From NCBI GenBank assembly GCA_035289105.1, contig DATDYF010000040.1:1-62087 (forward strand): DNA of 62,087 nucleotides, given 5' to 3'. Each line of letters opens with the position of its first letter. The stretch's first letter is position 1. Source of the DNA: Candidatus Nanoarchaeia archaeon. GTDB lineage: Archaea > Nanobdellota > Nanobdellia > Woesearchaeales > JACQSR01. The notes beneath the pieces were generated by a model, which was given only the letters and a program-made list of their open reading frames with translations, was not told the DNA's origin and did no database searches. The position numbers and the translations under genes were made by a program. Below, piece by piece: positions 47,012 through 62,087 of this stretch.

Positions 47012-47046
47012 TTTTTAAATACCCTTCCTAAGTTCTCCGCAAATAT

Positions 47047-47140
47047 GCCCCGATAGTGTAGTCCGGCCAATCATTTTGCCCTCTCGGAACATAACTGTTG
47101 AAGACAGGCAAAGACTCGAGTTCAAATCTCGATCGGGGCA
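47047..47140 (+). tRNA. tRNA-Glu(CUC) with 19-nt canonical intron
   Basis: GCCCCGA/UCGGGGC+A; D-arm GUGUAGUCCGGCCAAUCAU typical of archaeal tRNA-Glu; anticodon stem UUGCC/GGCAA; T-arm UCGAG-UUCAAAU-CUCGA; T-tract after. Confidence 0.85.
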
Positions 47141-47190
47141 GTTTTTCTTTGAGAAAATTATATATACTAAGTCAGTTTTCCATTAATACA

Positions 47191-47970: not shown

Positions 47971-48816
47971 ATGGATGCAGGCAAAGCGATGGTGGTTTTT
48001 CAGGGTAAGAATATCAGAAGAGCGTGGCATAACAATGAGTGGTATTTTTCTGTAGTAGACGTTGTGGCTGCATTGACAGAAAGCGGAAGAGCCAGAAAAT
48101 ACTGGTCTGACCTAAAAATAAAGCTTACAGAGGAAGGTTTTGAGTTGTCCGCAAAAATCGGACAACTGAAATTAGTATCTGCTGATGGAAAGTCATATCT
48201 TACAGATTGTGTTAATGCAAAGAATGCTTTTAGGATAATCCAGTCAATCCCTTCTCCTAAAGCAGAGCCGTTCAAGCAGTGGCTTGCTCAGGTGGGTTAT
48301 GAGCGTGTTGAAGAGATACACAACCCAGAGCTAGCTCAAGCCAGAATGAGGGAAATCTATAAAGCAAAAGGATATTCAGATGAATGGATTGAAAAGAGGG
48401 TCAGAGGAATAGCGGTAAGGCAGGAGCTTACAGATGAATGGAAGAAGAGAAAGGTTGAGGAAGAGAGGGAGTTTGCGATATTGACAAATGATATAAGCAA
48501 AGCCACATTCGGAAAAACAGTGGAAGAATATAAAGAGTTCAAAGGGCTTAAAAGAGAGAGCTTAAGGGACCACATGAACGACCTTGAGCTGATATTTACA
48601 ATGCTTGGCGAAGCCTCAACAACAAGAATAGCTAGGAACAAAAATGCGCAGGGGTTTAGCGAAAACGAAGATGCTGCAAAAGAAGGCGGCAGTGTTGCTG
48701 GCATCGCAAGAAAGGAACTCGAAAAGAAAAGCGGAGAAAAAGTACCTTCCGAAGACAATTACCTTAATATGCCGGAAAGCAGGAAGAGGCTGGAAAACAA
48801 GGAAAAAGGCAAATAG
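47971..48816 (+). CDS. Bro-N domain protein (DinD/antirepressor-like)
   Basis: FQGKNIRRAWHNNEWYFSVVDVVAALTES N-terminal Bro-N pattern; helical C-terminus. Confidence 0.7.
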   Translation: MDAGKAMVVFQGKNIRRAWHNNEWYFSVVDVVAALTESGRARKYWSDLKIKLTEEGFELSAKIGQLKLVSADGKSYLTDCVNAKNAFRIIQSIPSPKAEPFKQWLAQVGYERVEEIHNPELAQARMREIYKAKGYSDEWIEKRVRGIAVRQELTDEWKKRKVEEEREFAILTNDISKATFGKTVEEYKEFKGLKRESLRDHMNDLELIFTMLGEASTTRIARNKNAQGFSENEDAAKEGGSVAGIARKELEKKSGEKVPSEDNYLNMPESRKRLENKEKGK

Positions 48817-48823
48817 CCATTAT

Positions 48824-48907
48824 GCCAGCGTCGCATAATCCGGCATTGCGCTTGCCTCGAAAGCAGGTGTCCGCAAGGACTTCCAGGTTCAAATCCTGGC
48901 GCTGGCG
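48824..48907 (+). tRNA. tRNA-Ser(CGA), class II, no intron
   Basis: GCCAGCG/CGCUGGC+G; anticodon loop CUCGAAA; variable arm UGUCCGCAAGGACUU; T-arm CCAGG-UUCAAAU-CCUGG. Confidence 0.85.
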
Positions 48908-48967
48908 TTAGTGAACAATTGTTGGAAGTAAGAATGTATTTAAACGCACGTCTGTTCCCCCGCTTAC

Positions 48968-55734: not shown

Positions 55735-55936
55735 CAAGAACCACCGGTCAGAGACCGGTGGAATGAAGCGTAAGCTCTTTCTTCCTTGCAGACCAGTGGT
55801 TCTTGAGCATGCTCAGAATTTTCTGCTCATCAACTTGAGCAAAGCTTGCCACTAGTCTGAGACTAGTGGAAAATTCTGACATTTTAACCACCAAACCCCG
55901 TACCTTTTAAATTTTTCTGTGAAACTAGTTTCACAG
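55735..55936. repeat. cluster of related palindromes / nested inverted repeats in a divergent intergenic region
   Basis: CCACCGGTC-AGA-GACCGGTGG (55741-61); CCACTAGTC-TGA-GACTAGTGG (55849-69); CAAGAACCACCGGTC vs GACCAGTGGTTCTTG (55735-49 / 55791-805); CAGAATTTTC vs GAAAATTCTG; CTGTGAAAC-TA-GTTTCACAG (55917-36). Confidence 0.6.
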
Positions 55937-56964: not shown

Positions 56965-57462
56965 ATGGAAGATGAAGTGAAGAAATGGCTCAAAAAGGTT
57001 GAAGATGTAAAGAAAGGCGATGTGGACCTTTCGAGGGATGAAGACCTTAGCATAGCCATAATGAACCTTGTCAGCCTGGAGGAGCATTTCTATTTCTCTG
57101 CGATGAAGACAGAAGACCAGAAATACCTTGACATGCTTCATTCTGTCAGGGAAACCAGAAAGAATCTGCTTAAAAAAATAGTGACTGAGCCCAAAGGAGA
57201 GGAGTGGTGCATAAGCAAGCATCTTTTGGGAGCAAGCATGCGCTTAATAGAAGTGGGCACAAAGGAGCTTTCGAAAGGCAACGCAAAGGAGGCGAATAAC
57301 TTTTTTACTCAGGCATTCAATCTTTACTCGTTGTTCTTTGCAATCAACCTGAAAATGATTGAGTCAAAGAAGCTGGAGCAGGGGGCGCTCCAGAAAGAAG
57401 AGAAGATGAGCAAGTTTTCTGCAATAATAAAGAAGATAGTTGACTGCTGCAAGGAATGGTAA
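56965..57462 (+). CDS. hypothetical helical protein ending in CCKEW
   Basis: ATG at 56965 just after the previous stop; 165 aa. Confidence 0.45.
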   Translation: MEDEVKKWLKKVEDVKKGDVDLSRDEDLSIAIMNLVSLEEHFYFSAMKTEDQKYLDMLHSVRETRKNLLKKIVTEPKGEEWCISKHLLGASMRLIEVGTKELSKGNAKEANNFFTQAFNLYSLFFAINLKMIESKKLEQGALQKEEKMSKFSAIIKKIVDCCKEW

Positions 57463-57580
57463 TGGGCCCAGCCAGACTTTCGTTTTAGGGTTGCATTTCA
57501 CTCCGAAGTTCGTGGCATCGTAGATGCCACTTGACTGCGGGGTGTATCGGGCGCAGCCCTTACTAATGGGCCCAGCCAGA
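57460..57580. repeat. 17-nt direct repeat (TAATGGGCCCAGCCAGA at 57460-76 and 57564-80) bracketing an 87-nt two-hairpin insert
   Basis: Exact repeat. The right copy is the 3' end of tRNA-Val (T-stem 3' strand + acceptor + 3 nt). Confidence 0.85.
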
Positions 57581-57687
57581 GTCGAACTGGCGACCTTCTC
57601 CATGTTGAAAACAGCTTCGCAGTTTTCAAAAGATTCAGCGGAGCTGCATCCGTCAAAGAGACGTCATAACCACTAGACCATGGGCCC
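57567..57687 (-). tRNA. tRNA-Val(GAC) with about 48-nt canonical intron
   Basis: GGGCCCA/UGGGCCC+A; D-arm GUCU-AGUGGUUA-UGAC; anticodon stem UCUCU/GGAGA, loop UUGACG|intron; T-arm GCCAG-UUCGACU-CUGGC. Confidence 0.8.
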
Positions 57688-57722: not shown

Positions 57723-57856
57723 TGTGATGGAAGATGAAAATAAATGCCTCTAATGGGCTATGCCTGGTTTGGGTATAGGTGGGGGCGGATTATCGTTCAA
57801 AACAAAAAGGTTTAAAGATTTGTTAACACATACTACACACATTGGAGATTGTCAAA

Positions 57857-58075
57857 ATGGTTAATATGACATTATCAGTGCCAGAAGGACTTCACAATGA
57901 AATGGAAGTCCATTCAGAAATTAAATGGAGCGATGTAGCTAGACAAGCTTTTGAAAAGAAAGTCAAAGAGTTACATTGGATGGACAAGGTTTTAACAAAA
58001 AGCACCTTGACCGAGAAAGATGCTGAAGAGATTGGGCACAAGATAAAACATGAAGTCAGAAAAAGATTCTCTTAG
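57857..58075 (+). CDS. VapB-like antitoxin
   Basis: MTLSVPEGLHNEMEVHSEIKWSDVARQAFEKK pattern common upstream of archaeal PIN genes. A TTG at 57842 is also possible (TATA TTTAAAGA at 57811-18). Confidence 0.6.
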   Translation: MVNMTLSVPEGLHNEMEVHSEIKWSDVARQAFEKKVKELHWMDKVLTKSTLTEKDAEEIGHKIKHEVRKRFS

Positions 58076-58478
58076 GCTGATAGTCGATACGAATAGGATT
58101 ATCGCTGCATTAATCAGATACTCTATTTCGAGAAGGATTATAACTCATCTTGATGCAGAACTCTACACAATTGGTGTTTCTGAGAGGGAAATTGCGGGGT
58201 ATAAAAGCCTCATCTTGAAAAAAGCAGGGCTAAATGAGGTGGAGTTGGATGTGGTATTTGAAAAAATCAGAGAGAGGATGATAATCTTGGAGGATAACTT
58301 GGTATTAACAATGATAAAGGAAGCAAAAGAGATAATGGATAAAATAGACCCTGATGAGACTGCATTCATTGCTGCTGCACTTGCGATAAAAGCAGATATA
58401 TGGTCGGATGACAAACATTTTCAGAAACAAAAGAATGTTAAGGTTTGGAAGACGAGTGATTTAATGAGGGTATTATAA
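58050..58478 (+). CDS. vapC: PIN-domain (VapC-like) protein
   Basis: LIVDTN..., DPDETAFIAAAL, IWSDDKHF acidic residues in PIN order. Confidence 0.75.
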   Translation: MKSEKDSLRLIVDTNRIIAALIRYSISRRIITHLDAELYTIGVSEREIAGYKSLILKKAGLNEVELDVVFEKIRERMIILEDNLVLTMIKEAKEIMDKIDPDETAFIAAALAIKADIWSDDKHFQKQKNVKVWKTSDLMRVL

Positions 58479-58480
58479 GA

Positions 58481-58565
58481 AGCCTCCGATGGGAGTTGCA
58501 CCCACGACCTTTACCTTTTTGCATTTTATACCAAGGTAACGCAATAGCTACTATGCTACGGAGGC
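58481..58565 (-). tRNA. tRNA-Thr(GGU) with 12-nt intron and atypical D/T loops
   Basis: GCCUCCG/CGGAGGC+U; anticodon stem UUACC/GGUAA, loop UUGGUA|intron|A; T-arm GUGGG-UGCAACU-CCCAU; D-loop AGUAGCUA lacks GG. Confidence 0.7.
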
Positions 58566-58649
58566 ATGTGTTTGGGCTATTCGAAGAATAGACCGATTTT
58601 GGTGCAGCTTTTTGCTTGACAAAAAGATGCCTACCTCTGCTACGGAGGC
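58554..58649. repeat. 12-nt direct repeat (TGCTACGGAGGC at 58554-65 and 58638-49) bracketing a 72-nt two-hairpin insert
   Basis: Exact repeat equal to tRNA-Thr nt 1-12. Hairpins CTATTC-GAA-GAATAG (58577-91) and GCAgCTTTTTG-CTTGA-CAAAAAGaTGC (58604-30). Confidence 0.8.
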
Positions 58650-59163: not shown

Positions 59164-59293
59164 TGCGAGGGAGGGGATTTGAACCCCCGGACTCACTAAG
59201 AGACAGGATGTCCTATTTACACATAGGTGCCTTCTTAAGTCCTGCGCGTTTGGTTGCCCGATTGCTTTCAATCTCCAGGCTTCGCTACCCTCG
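59164..59293 (-). tRNA. tRNA-Leu(UAA), class II, two introns (D-loop about 21 nt; 37/38 about 24 nt)
   Basis: GCGAGGG/CCCUCGC+A; D-stem GCG/CGC; anticodon stem CAGGA/UCCUG, loop CUUAAG|intron|A; T-arm GGGGG-UUCAAAU-CCCCU. Confidence 0.8.
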
Positions 59294-59317
59294 CGTTAGG
59301 CTCTAAGGCTCTTACGC

Positions 59318-61560: not shown

Positions 61561-61625
61561 CTACATCCCGGACATCTTTAACTTTTTCATCATCTTTCCC
61601 ATATCGCCCTTAGAGCCTTTGAGCA
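61561..61625 (-). pseudogene. displaced/duplicate copy of the SRP54 3' coding end (encodes VLKGSKGDMGKMMKKLKMSGM*)
   Basis: About 83% nt identity over 54 nt to the true gene end at 61693-61751. Confidence 0.7.
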
Positions 61626-61692
61626 CATTTCTCTGCAAGAGAAATGAGCAAAGAGTGCAGTCAAGTGGGACACAAGGTCCCACGAACTTCTA
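61626..61692. other. 67-nt two-hairpin insert between the SRP54 end copies
   Basis: CATTTCTCT-GCA-AGAGAAATG (61626-46) and the 34-nt core at 61657-90, which shares its 11+12-nt flanks with 57505-38. Confidence 0.8.
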
Positions 61693-62087
61693 CTAGCCCA
61701 TTTTTAATTTCTTCATCATCTTGGACATATCGCCTTTGGAGCCTTTGAGCATCTTCACCATCTTCTTTGACTGCCTGTATTGCTTAAGCAGTTCTCTGAC
61801 CTCACCCACGCCAATCCCAGAACCTTTTGCAATGCGGTCAATTCTGGATGCAGAGACGATCTCAGGGTCCTCAAGCTCGTCTTTTGTCATTGACTGCATA
61901 GCAATCTTCCATTTCTCAAGCTTGCCTTCCTGGACATCAAGCATTTCCTTTGGGAGCTTAAACTGCGAAAAGCCAGGTATCATTTCAACGAGCTTTGACA
62001 ATGAGCCCATTTTCTTCATTGCGGACATCTGCTCGTATAAATCCAGAAGCGAGAATTCCCCCTTGAGGAATTTCTTGCCCAGGTCTT
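61693..62087 (-). CDS. srp54: signal recognition particle protein SRP54 (C-terminal M-domain part; 5' end outside window)
   Basis: Frame is open to the window edge. ...FSLLDLYEQMSAMKKMGSLSKLVEMIPG...DRIAKGSGIGVGEVRELLKQY M-domain motifs. Confidence 0.9.
   Translation of the reverse strand, partial: DLGKKFLKGEFSLLDLYEQMSAMKKMGSLSKLVEMIPGFSQFKLPKEMLDVQEGKLEKWKIAMQSMTKDELEDPEIVSASRIDRIAKGSGIGVGEVRELLKQYRQSKKMVKMLKGSKGDMSKMMKKLKMG

What the first reader, a model, noticed from the sequence alone, without database searches (positions are those of the whole stretch)
57460..57580. tRNA-Val 3' end duplicated 104 nt downstream, att-like, around an 87-nt hairpin insert
The exact 17-mer TAATGGGCCCAGCCAGA occurs at 57564-80 and again at 57460-76. 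The first copy is the T-stem 3' strand + acceptor + discriminator + 3 nt of the minus-strand tRNA-Val. The second copy overlaps the stop codon of the convergent ORF. Duplicated tRNA 3' ends are the classic footprint of tRNA-targeting integrative elements. Here the bracketed DNA is only 87 nt, holding the 34-nt core hairpin plus CTGCG-N12-CGCAG. No integrase is in the window. Unlike the other tRNAs here, no T-tract follows the functional 3' end.
Basis: seen in the sequence. Interest (0 to 1): 0.7.

Follow-up and report, generated by a model that had tools for sequence, protein, structure and literature searches.

The report
tRNA T-loop intron with duplicated exon
The repeated 17 bases are two identical copies of the last exon of an archaeal tRNA-Val gene, one on each side of an 87-base mobile T-loop intron, so the tRNA can be made with or without splicing: a rare snapshot of a tRNA intron being gained or lost, not the scar of an integrated virus or plasmid.

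Summary
The exact 17-mer occurs twice, 104 nt apart, at the 3' end of a minus-strand, intron-containing tRNA-Val(GAC) of a Woesearchaeota (DPANN) archaeon, and five other independent assemblies show the same structure. The att/integrase reading is not the best fit. The 87 nt between the copies is a complete homologue (BLAST E 4e-10, 97.8-bit covariance-model hit) of a 99-nt intron that splits the T-loop (position 59/60) of tRNA-Leu in the sister species. That species' own tRNA-Val also has a T-loop intron at 59/60, followed by a single 3' exon where the window has its distal 17-mer. The insert ends in CGAAAG. This pairs with T-loop U54-G57 and, with the T-stem, gives the same relaxed bulge-helix-bulge geometry as 8 of 9 other T-loop-split tRNAs. 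So the proximal 17-mer is an extra 3' exon copy that makes the gene contiguous, and the distal copy is the spliceable exon. Both folds are isoenergetic. One strain, 100% identical in both flanks, has lost exactly the intron plus one copy. No integrase, transposase or Cas1 is in the 62 kb. It is unresolved whether the duplication arose when the intron entered or when it was bypassed.

The parts
57567..57687 (-). tRNA-Val(GAC) gene, read contiguously with the proximal 3' exon copy; contains a canonical 37/38 intron
   Evidence: Rfam tRNA 52.1 bits; ARAGORN -i calls tRNA-Val(gac) with a 48-nt intron.
57603..57650 (-). 48-nt canonical bulge-helix-bulge (BHB) intron in the anticodon loop (37/38)
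   Evidence: BHB geometry check: H UUGA/UCAA, h is the anticodon stem (5 bp), inner helix mostly paired. Absent from the sister species.
57583..57586 (-). T-loop U54-G57 (UUCG), the 5'-exon strand of the central 4-bp helix of the T-loop splice motif
   Evidence: Pairs 4/4 with CGAA at the end of the 87-nt insert.
57564..57580 (-). Proximal (inner) 17-mer: U60 to A73 plus UUA; an extra 3' exon copy that makes the gene contiguous
   Evidence: Exact repeat. Absent at this place in the sister species, where the intron follows A59 directly.
57477..57563 (-). 87-nt T-loop-intron family member (I87), structured RNA
   Evidence: Compared with the 99-nt T-loop intron of the sister's tRNA-Leu: 74 identical columns of 100, score 98.5 against shuffles 11.5 +/- 6.8, BLAST E 4e-10. 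Covariance model 97.8 bits. Folding z-score -4.8. Closing stem kept through 2 compensatory pairs.
57477..57482 (-). Intron 3' end CGAAAG: CGAA (57479-57482) pairs with U54-G57, and AG (57477-57478) is the 2-nt part of the 3' bulge before the splice site
   Evidence: Same 6-mer at the 3' end of the T-loop introns in L105 tRNA-Val, L096 tRNA-Val and a second L096 tRNA. UGAAAG is found where the T-loop is UUCA.
57508..57532 (-). Core hairpin AAGTGG-CATCTACGATG-CCACGAAC of the intron family
   Evidence: Identical in the sister's tRNA-Leu intron. A second copy with a compensated stem lies at 61663-61687 (0.01 expected by chance).
57460..57476 (-). Distal (outer) 17-mer: the 3' exon in the ancestral position (U60 to A73), plus UUA, which is the complement of the ORF's TAA stop codon
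   Evidence: In the sister species the only 3' exon lies here, after a 34-nt T-loop intron. With the T-stem 5' strand it forms h (5 bp), H (4 bp) and the bulge AG|U.
56965..57462 (+). Convergent conserved ORF (165 aa, no Pfam family) whose stop codon lies inside the distal 17-mer
   Evidence: The C-terminus ...CCKEW* is conserved in relatives.

Best explanation
The window comes from a Woesearchaeota (DPANN) archaeon. Its tRNA-Val(GAC) gene carries, at T-loop position 59/60, a complete 87-nt member of a mobile family of non-canonical bulge-helix-bulge (BHB) tRNA introns. That intron sits between two identical copies of the 3' exon (U60-A73 plus 3 trailer nt).

The distal copy is in the place of the only 3' exon of the sister species' gene. 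The proximal copy is an extra one placed exactly at the 5' splice junction, so the gene reads as an uninterrupted tRNA.

Inferred working: the transcript runs through both copies, because no T-tract lies between them, and can mature in two ways.
(a) The cloverleaf closes on the proximal copy, the 3' end is cut after A73, and the intron plus distal copy are discarded as trailer.
(b) The T-stem and acceptor close on the distal copy and U54-G57 pair with CGAA at the intron's end. The splicing endonuclease and RtcB ligase then remove 104 nt.
Both routes give the same tRNA.

The 17-nt direct repeat makes the unit unstable, and one strain has deleted the intron plus one copy.

Shown: homology of the insert to a real T-loop intron, the splice-motif geometry, the states in the sister species, and the strain polymorphism.
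Inferred: actual use of either maturation route.
Unresolved: how the duplication arose. Either the intron inserted into an intact gene with a target duplication, or an exon copy was inserted later and bypasses an older intron.
For: (1) Sister species. L105/L119, confirmed independently by L121, is fully syntenic with the window. Its tRNA-Val reads ...GCCAG UUCGAA | 34-nt intron ending CGAAAG | UCUGGCUGGGCCCA, with one 3' exon at the site of the window's distal copy.

(2) Homology. The 87 nt is homologous from first to last base to the 99-nt T-loop intron of tRNA-Leu(TAA), which lies about 1.5 kb away in the sister species. Measures: 74 identical columns of 100, score 98.5 against shuffles 11.5 +/- 6.8, BLAST E 4e-10; covariance model 97.8 bits. 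Its 3' end differs in a compensatory way: UGAAAG with T-loop UUCA, CGAAAG with UUCG. The window's own tRNA-Leu (59164-59294) lacks this intron.

(3) Splice geometry. The rule was validated on the window's anticodon intron. Window, L105, L096 and L090 all show T-stem h of 5 bp, a central helix paired 4/4, and a 3' bulge AG|U (UG|U in L090).

(4) Unbiased scan. In a scan that did not require this pairing, 8 of 9 credible T-loop-split tRNAs had 4/4 pairs, against 4 of 129 spurious candidates (L030 added).

(5) Structure. The insert folds well (z -4.8). Its closing stem is kept through 2 compensatory pairs.

(6) Two folds. Closing on the proximal or the distal copy is isoenergetic, -88.6 against -88.9 kcal/mol. 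No T run of 4 or more follows the proximal copy.

(7) Polymorphism. L115 lacks exactly 104 nt and has 100% identical flanks. The repeat-bearing form is in 6 assemblies (the window included), among them L003, whose right flank is diverged. This points to the repeat form giving rise to the deleted form.

(8) No mobile-element genes. No integrase, transposase or Cas1 domain among the ORFs scanned. No match of the 17-mer or the hairpin in viral contigs, nor of the 87-nt insert in phage or plasmid collections.

(9) Literature. DPANN splicing endonucleases are associated with many disrupted tRNA genes, and relaxed hBH/BHL motifs are cleaved by broad-specificity enzymes (PMC5829648, PMC4033280).
Against: - There is no RNA evidence, so use of the distal copy is only an in-silico possibility. 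Co-transcriptional folding should favour the proximal copy.
- The 5' splice site would not sit in a clean 3-nt bulge, and the inner helix h' is not adjacent. The same is true of the obligatory introns in L105 and L090.
- No splicing endonuclease or RtcB gene is in the window, so the enzyme type is unknown.
- Short inserts bracketed by duplicated tRNA ends also occur in CPR bacteria, which have no BHB splicing, and at another DPANN tRNA-Val (L085) whose insert is not splice-compatible. A splicing-independent, integrase-like or recombination process could therefore have made the duplication.
- The sister's own tRNA-Val intron (34 nt) is not significantly similar to the 87 nt beyond CGAAAG. Continuity of the intron at this site is not proven.
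- The intron's core hairpin also occurs outside any tRNA, next to a duplicated SRP54 gene end. That hints at DNA-level mobility not tied to splicing.
Confidence: 0.72

Rival explanations
1. Conventional att remnant. A tRNA-targeting integrative element, using a tyrosine recombinase or a casposon-like integrase, inserted at the T-loop/3' end of tRNA-Val and duplicated the 17-bp core. It then lost all but 87 nt. The resemblance to introns is secondary: T-loop introns of this lineage would themselves descend from such remnants.
For: - The identity block runs from the T-loop to just past the 3' end of the tRNA, as in known tRNA att sites.
- A variant without the insert exists.
- The same architecture recurs in this region. 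A copy of the tRNA-Thr 3' end lies at the far side of the toxin-antitoxin cassette, and L003 is the empty site. A 12-nt copy of the tRNA-Thr 5' end lies 84 nt upstream.
- It also recurs in CPR bacteria and other DPANN archaea. All 22 hits were in the expected direction and none in the control direction.
- Sugahara et al. 2012 (PMC3293823) proposed intron gain through integration of a mobile element.
Against: - No integrase, transposase or Cas1 in the 62 kb.
- No third copy of the 17-mer in the window.
- No attP-like match in viral, phage or plasmid collections.
- The whole 87 nt, from end to end, is homologous to an intron that sits in a different tRNA without any duplication.
- Its terminal CGAA matches the host T-loop in a compensatory way. 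About 3% of random candidates do so.
- The sequences next to the core show no T-arm-like inverted repeat (direct reading of the sequence).
Confidence: 0.13
2. A functional small RNA or processing cassette. The 87-nt structured segment is a stable RNA released from the tRNA-Val trailer. The two tRNA-end copies serve as processing signals at both of its ends. The duplication is maintained by selection and is not a transitional state.
For: - Strong predicted structure (z -4.8), with a conserved closing stem and core hairpin.
- Both 17-mers are 17/17 identical in all strains that carry them.
- G+C is 54% against 44% for the window.
Against: - A strain without the segment exists and has no other change.
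- The sister species has a different, unrelated 34-nt intron at this site.
- No Rfam family matches, and I saw no C/D boxes by eye.
- In the sister species the homologue is simply an intron of tRNA-Leu.
Confidence: 0.08
3. Chance repeat or assembly artefact.
For: None beyond the short length of the repeat.
Against: - An exact 17-mer pair is far beyond chance.
- The identical structure appears in six assemblies (the window included) from several projects and assemblers.
- A 17-nt repeat cannot collapse or duplicate at an assembly k-mer of 141 (my own reasoning, from the k141 contig names).
Confidence: 0.01

Closest known systems
Non-canonical archaeal BHB tRNA introns and their 'transposition' between tRNA genes (Thermoproteales; Fujishima et al. 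2010, as reviewed in PMC4090602 and PMC4033280)
   Same: The intron lies outside the anticodon loop. It has a relaxed hBH/BHL motif. Closely similar intron sequences sit in different tRNA genes: tRNA-Val here and tRNA-Leu in the sister species. Turnover between close relatives is rapid.
   Different: The lineage is a DPANN Woesearchaeon. The intron is flanked by a perfect 17-nt duplication of the 3' exon, so the gene is not actually interrupted, and the unit is polymorphic within one population. I found no such exon duplication in the reviews I read. They state that the transposition mechanism is unknown.
Caldiarchaeum subterraneum tRNA-Thr(GGU) locus heterogeneity (Sugahara et al. 2012, PMC3293823)
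   Same: Population-level variants of one tRNA locus combine gain or loss of an intron with a duplicated tRNA fragment forming a direct repeat. It was read as a snapshot of tRNA gene disruption.
   Different: There the repeat is a 5' fragment 1.8 kb away, across an insertion that encodes a recombinase, and the intron is thought to have come in with attP. Here the insert is only 87 nt, has no coding capacity, is itself the intron, and no recombinase is nearby.
attL/attR duplications of tRNA 3' ends made by archaeal SSV-type or pNOB8-type integrases (described in PMC3293823 and PMC4090602)
   Same: A direct repeat runs from inside the T-arm to the end of the tRNA gene. An intact tRNA is kept at one side and a partial copy at the other.
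   Different: The repeat is 17 bp (the SSV1 core is 44 bp). There is no integrase, split or intact, and no element-sized cargo. The bracketed DNA is an intron homologue with splice-site pairing.
Casposon (Cas1-solo) integration with 14-15-bp target duplications at tRNA 3' ends (recalled from memory; not tested here)
   Same: An unusually long target duplication at the 3' end of a tRNA gene.
   Different: No Cas1 domain was found in the window. The insert is 87 nt, and its ends form an RNA closing stem and not recognisable casposon terminal repeats. This is a lead only.

Membership tests
Archaeal BHB tRNA intron at non-canonical position 59/60 (T-loop) | Sequence homology to an intron that demonstrably interrupts a tRNA gene | tested here: met
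   The 87 nt against the 99-nt T-loop intron of the sister's tRNA-Leu: BLAST E 4e-10, score 98.5 against shuffles 11.5 +/- 6.8; covariance model 97.8 bits. That intron was seen in two independent assemblies.
Archaeal BHB tRNA intron at non-canonical position 59/60 (T-loop) | Bulge-helix-bulge or relaxed hBH/BHL motif at the exon-intron junctions | tested here: met
   With the distal copy as exon: h is the T-stem (5 bp), H is UUCG/CGAA (4/4), the 3' bulge is AG|U. The 5' site is relaxed, as in the obligatory introns of L105 and L090. The pairing is specific: 8 of 9 real cases against 4 of 129 spurious.
Archaeal BHB tRNA intron at non-canonical position 59/60 (T-loop) | The intron interrupts the mature tRNA sequence, so splicing is required | tested here: not met
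   The proximal 17-mer makes the gene contiguous: Rfam tRNA 52.1 bits with no T-loop insertion. This is why I call it a variant and not a plain member.
Archaeal BHB tRNA intron at non-canonical position 59/60 (T-loop) | Excision by the splicing endonuclease and ligation by RtcB in vivo | not testable with these tools
   No RNA data. No endonuclease or RtcB domain was found in the window.
tRNA-targeting integrative element (attL/attR of a site-specific recombinase) | Direct repeat made of the 3' part of the tRNA gene | tested here: met
   Exact 17-mer pair covering U60 to A73 plus 3 nt.
tRNA-targeting integrative element (attL/attR of a site-specific recombinase) | Integrase gene inside or next to the bracketed DNA, or split by it | tested here: not met
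   The bracketed DNA is 87 nt. A Pfam scan of about 70 ORFs across the 62 kb found no integrase, transposase or Cas1.
tRNA-targeting integrative element (attL/attR of a site-specific recombinase) | Matching attP on a free or integrated element elsewhere | tested here: not met
   No hit to the 17-mer or the hairpin in viral contigs. No hit to the 87 nt in phage or plasmid collections. The 21 metagenome hits to the 17-mer are ordinary tRNA-Val genes or chance matches. The rest of this genome could not be searched.
tRNA-targeting integrative element (attL/attR of a site-specific recombinase) | Unoccupied site in relatives | tested here: inconclusive
   L115 has a single copy. It is nested among repeat-bearing strains with 100% identical flanks, which fits a later deletion as well as an empty attB.
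MITE-like DNA transposon | Terminal inverted repeats, a target duplication of fixed length, and many copies | tested here: inconclusive
   The ends form an imperfect inverted repeat, which is also the RNA closing stem. Only two full-length copies are known, one per species, plus one core copy. Only one of them has a duplication. No further copies in 0.5 Mb of related loci.

The most novel reading that the evidence does not exclude
The 16-17-nt duplication is the footprint of the still unknown DNA-level mechanism by which archaeal BHB tRNA introns move between tRNA genes.

On this reading the intron family behaves as a tiny non-autonomous mobile element. It inserts at T-loop position 59/60 by a staggered cut reaching just past the tRNA 3' end. 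The result is a gene that still works, the state seen in the window. Later loss of the inner exon copy turns the insert into an obligatory intron, the state seen in the sister species. Repeat-mediated deletion reverses the insertion, the state seen in L115.

The core hairpin next to a duplicated SRP54 gene end, and the other tRNA-end duplications nearby, would be products of the same machinery.
Probability: 0.3. Interest if true: 0.8.

Novelty: new variant of a known kind. Interest (0 to 1): 0.6.

Why it matters
Reviews of archaeal tRNA introns say that the way non-canonical introns are gained and moved between genes is unknown (PMC4090602, PMC5829648). This locus shows three states in nature:
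- an obligatory T-loop intron (sister species);
- the same site with a complete mobile-family intron bracketed by a duplicated exon (window);
- the clean gene (one strain).
The same intron family also sits in a different tRNA in the sister species.

This turns the question of intron gain or loss into something testable with read-level population data, circular-RNA sequencing and in-vitro cleavage.

There is a practical point too. Standard tRNA finders miss several tRNAs here. tRNA-Val needs intron-aware settings. tRNA-Leu and the sister's T-loop-split genes are missed entirely. tRNA sets of DPANN genomes are therefore under-called.

Tried and rejected
- Viral, phage and plasmid searches. The 17-mer and the insert hairpin have no hit in viral contigs. 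The 87 nt has no hit in phages or plasmids in distant mode. The core-motif pattern gave one hit in viral contigs (L118), which lies in coding-like sequence without a hairpin and was judged to be chance.
- Species representatives of the neighbouring ORF (80 loci) and closer relatives (P0003, P0006, P0007, P0011). None has a tRNA-Val downstream, so they were uninformative.
- Exact-protein look-up of the 77-aa TTG-start antitoxin found nothing. The 72-aa ATG form worked.
- The sister's own 34-nt tRNA-Val intron is not significantly similar to the 87 nt: 131 of 500 shuffles scored as high.
- A covariance model of the intron family found no further members in 0.5 Mb of DPANN loci.
- I checked by hand whether the 72-nt insert upstream of tRNA-Thr could be a spliceable intron in any register of its 12-nt repeat. 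The central-helix pairing is absent, so I rejected this.
- I checked whether the 87 nt plus the distal copy is a decayed tandem tRNA. Rfam gives no tRNA-like hit even at E up to 10 and ARAGORN gives none. Rejected.
- I looked by eye for C/D-box small-RNA motifs in the insert and found none.
- My first T-loop-intron scan required the central-helix pairing and was therefore circular for that feature. I repeated it without the requirement.

Full report
OBSERVATION

The 17-mer TAATGGGCCCAGCCAGA is present exactly twice, at 57460-57476 and 57564-57580, and nowhere else in the window even with three mismatches allowed.

The minus strand of 57567-57687 is a tRNA. Rfam scores 52.1 bits once the region is searched on its own. 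ARAGORN with its intron option calls tRNA-Val(GAC) with a 48-nt intron. Default ARAGORN and the whole-window gathering scan miss it.

In tRNA sense the repeat is U60, the T-stem 3' strand, the acceptor 3' strand, A73 and three trailer bases UUA. The distal copy's UUA is the complement of the TAA stop of the convergent ORF 56965-57462. That ORF's ...CCKEW* end is conserved in thousands of DPANN and CPR homologues.

The same structure occurs base for base in L001, L002, L003, L113 and L114, which come from separate assemblies. It is not an artefact.

ORGANISM AND CONTEXT

The neighbouring proteins place the window in Candidatus Woesearchaeota. The 62 kb is ordinary chromosome: ribosomal proteins, purine synthesis, gyrase B, TFIIB, ArgRS and so on. 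About 70 ORFs were scanned and none has an integrase, transposase, Cas1, splicing-endonuclease or RtcB domain.

THE DECISIVE COMPARISONS

(1) Sister species, tRNA-Val. L105/L119 (GCA_016211215.1) is the closest species found; the neighbouring ORF is 83% identical. An independent Logan assembly, L121, confirms it. The locus is fully syntenic: DUF411, 173 aa, the ORF, tRNA-Val, RHH-PIN toxin-antitoxin, tRNA-Thr, a 144-aa ORF, tRNA-Leu, AhpC.

Its tRNA-Val has no anticodon intron but is split in the T-loop...GCCAG UUCGAA | 34 nt ending CGAAAG | UCUGGCUGGGCCCA. It has one 3' exon only, at the place of the window's distal 17-mer.

(2) Sister species, tRNA-Leu. Its tRNA-Leu(UAA), about 1.5 kb away, is split at the same T-loop position by a 99-nt intron. 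That intron is homologous to the window's 87-nt insert from first to last base.
- 74 identical columns of 100, including a 27-nt identical core.
- Global score 98.5 against 11.5 +/- 6.8 for shuffles; BLAST E 4e-10.
- A covariance model built from the two sequences scores the window's copy at 97.8 bits, by construction.
- Its last six bases are UGAAAG where the T-loop is UUCA. The window's are CGAAAG where the T-loop is UUCG.

The window's own tRNA-Leu (59164-59294, missed by all tRNA finders) has no T-loop intron.

(3) A strain without the unit. L115 is 100% identical to the window over 2031 and 936 nt of flank but lacks exactly 104 nt. It reads ...GAATGG TAATGGGCCCAGCCAGA GTCGAAC....

SPLICE GEOMETRY

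I derived the positional rule for a BHB intron. Exon bases -6 to -3 pair with intron bases -6 to -3, two bulge bases precede each cut, and the outer helix lies beyond. The rule holds on the window's canonical anticodon intron: UUGA/UCAA, with the anticodon stem as outer helix.

Applied to position 59/60 with the distal copy as exon, the window, L105, L096 and L090 all give the T-stem as a 5-bp outer helix, a 4/4 central helix and a 3' bulge. The inner helix is weak in the window, as it is in the obligatory introns of L105 and L090. This is the relaxed hBH/BHL type. The literature assigns its cleavage to broad-specificity endonucleases and associates it with DPANN enzymes (PMC5829648, PMC4033280).

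A scan of 1.04 Mb of fetched loci that did not require the central pairing recovered nine credible T-loop-split tRNAs, counting the window. Eight had 4/4 pairs and one had 3/4. Among 129 AT-rich spurious candidates, 4 had 4/4 (L030 added).

The insert's terminal CGAA is therefore a real intron signature, not something expected of random inserted DNA.

The insert folds well (-31.1 kcal/mol, z -4.8). Its closing stem is kept in the sister's intron through two compensatory pairs.

HOW IT PROBABLY WORKS

No run of four or more T follows the proximal copy for about 120 nt, so the transcript should include the insert and the distal copy. Forcing the T-stem and acceptor onto the proximal or the distal copy gives -88.6 and -88.9 kcal/mol.

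Either route yields the same mature tRNA: 3' processing after the proximal A73, or splicing of 104 nt. Which route is used is inferred, not shown.

HISTORY

The step from repeat-bearing form to single copy is supported. The repeat-bearing form is in six assemblies (the window included), among them L003, whose right flank differs: it has no toxin-antitoxin cassette and its tRNA-Thr region is about 92% identical. The single-copy form is found only in L115, which is otherwise identical to the window.

How the repeat-bearing form arose is open.
- In favour of 'intron first, exon copy added later': T-loop introns at this very site occur in the sister species and in other DPANN tRNA-Val genes. The insert has an intact splice signature. 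The two 17-mers are still identical.
- In favour of 'insertion into an intact gene with target duplication': the complete intron is bracketed exactly. The sister's intron at this site is a different sequence. The family has clearly moved between tRNA-Leu and tRNA-Val. A derived 72-nt insertion with a 12-nt duplication lies at the 5' end of the neighbouring tRNA-Thr and is absent from L105, L121 and L003.

I put these two at roughly equal odds.

WHY NOT A PLAIN ATT REMNANT

There is no recombinase gene among the ORFs scanned in the 62 kb, no third copy of the 17-mer, and no match to the 17-mer, the hairpin or the insert in the mobile-element collections searched. The 21 metagenome contigs that carry the 17-mer are ordinary tRNA-Val genes or chance matches. 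The bracketed DNA is an intron homologue end to end.

The caveat is real, though. In this data set 3' ends of tRNAs are copied downstream, and 5' ends upstream, around short inserts. All 22 hits were in that direction and none in the control direction. The cases include CPR bacteria, which cannot splice BHB introns. Some splicing-independent recombination process makes such structures in these small-genome organisms. It may have made this one too.

COMPARISON WITH WHAT IS KNOWN

The locus works like a non-canonical BHB intron and belongs by homology to such a family. It fails one defining feature of an intron, because the gene is not interrupted.

The closest precedents are intron 'transposition' in Thermoproteales and the Caldiarchaeum tRNA-Thr locus (PMC3293823). 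There a recombinase-bearing 1.8-kb insertion lies between a tRNA fragment and an intron-gaining gene.

Here the insert is the intron itself, the repeat is the 3' exon, and the three states are seen in one population and its sister species. I rate it a new variant of a known kind. It is of real interest to specialists in tRNA gene evolution and of modest general interest.

Noticed in passing
window 58554-58649 (tRNA-Thr(GGT) is 58481-58565, minus strand): The first 12 nt of tRNA-Thr (GCCTCCGTAGCA) are repeated 84 nt upstream, around a 72-nt two-hairpin insert (58566-58637) that lies between the tRNA and its promoter. The insert plus one copy is absent from L105, L121 and L003, so it is a derived insertion. 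It is not splice-compatible in any register. It shares 'TGCACCAAAA' and a two-hairpin layout with the inserts upstream of tRNA-Glu in L023.
   Followed up: partly
window 57745-57757 and 57857-58478: The RHH_12/PIN_2 toxin-antitoxin cassette between tRNA-Thr and tRNA-Val is bordered on its far side by a copy of the tRNA-Thr 3' end. The copy is 13/13 identical in L105 (CCCATCGGAGGCT) and 10/13 in the window. In L003 the two tRNAs abut with no cassette. This is a genuine att-like arrangement, but for tRNA-Thr.
   Followed up: partly
window 61573-61751: The last ~53 nt of the SRP54 gene (61699-61751) are duplicated at 61573-61625 (85% identical, with mostly synonymous differences). Between the copies is an insert carrying the intron family's core hairpin (61663-61687, + strand, stem compensated). 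The sister species has no such duplication.
   Followed up: partly
window 59164-59294 (minus strand): A tRNA-Leu(UAA) gene with a D-loop insert and an anticodon-loop intron is missed by ARAGORN and Rfam. The sister's orthologue lacks the D-loop insert but has the 99-nt T-loop intron. L003's copy has no T-loop intron. Intron content of three neighbouring tRNAs differs between sister species.
   Followed up: partly
window 55744-55881: A ~138-nt indel relative to L001 and L114 lies in the intergenic region between the AMP phosphorylase-like gene and DUF411. It has two near-identical hairpins (CCACCGGTC..GACCGGTGG and CCACTAGTC..GACTAGTGG) and is flanked by AACCACC. It looks like a small mobile or repeat-deleted element.
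   Followed up: no
L030, L090, L096 (three tRNAs), L102, L104, L105 (two tRNAs): T-loop 59/60 introns are frequent in these DPANN contigs and mostly end in YGAAAG before U60. Those in L096 and L030 share CCTTTTT...AAAAAGG hairpins, which suggests another transposing intron family. ARAGORN called no tRNA-Val or tRNA-Leu in L105. Detection in the other loci was not checked.
   Followed up: partly
L042, L058, L068, L075, L082 (CPR bacteria); L023, L025, L085 (DPANN): tRNA 3' ends are copied 44-300 nt downstream and 5' ends 45-190 nt upstream, around short inserts, always in that direction. The two inserts in L075 (tRNA-Phe and tRNA-His) share GGAACCGAGGGTTCCYAAAACG. L023 tRNA-Glu has three serial copies of its 5' end. 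This may be an undescribed class of miniature tRNA-end insertions in small-genome lineages.
   Followed up: partly
window 47971-48816: A BRO-N domain protein, a family typical of viruses, lies between tRNA-Arg (47046-47141) and tRNA-Ser (48823-48908). It may be a remnant of a mobile element at another tRNA.
   Followed up: no
window 56965-57462: The 165-aa ORF next to the tRNA has no Pfam family. It is nevertheless highly conserved: more than 7900 hits, 50-80% identity across Woesearchaeota, other DPANN archaea and many CPR bacteria, with invariant Cys, His and Trp positions and a C-terminal CCKEW.
   Followed up: no
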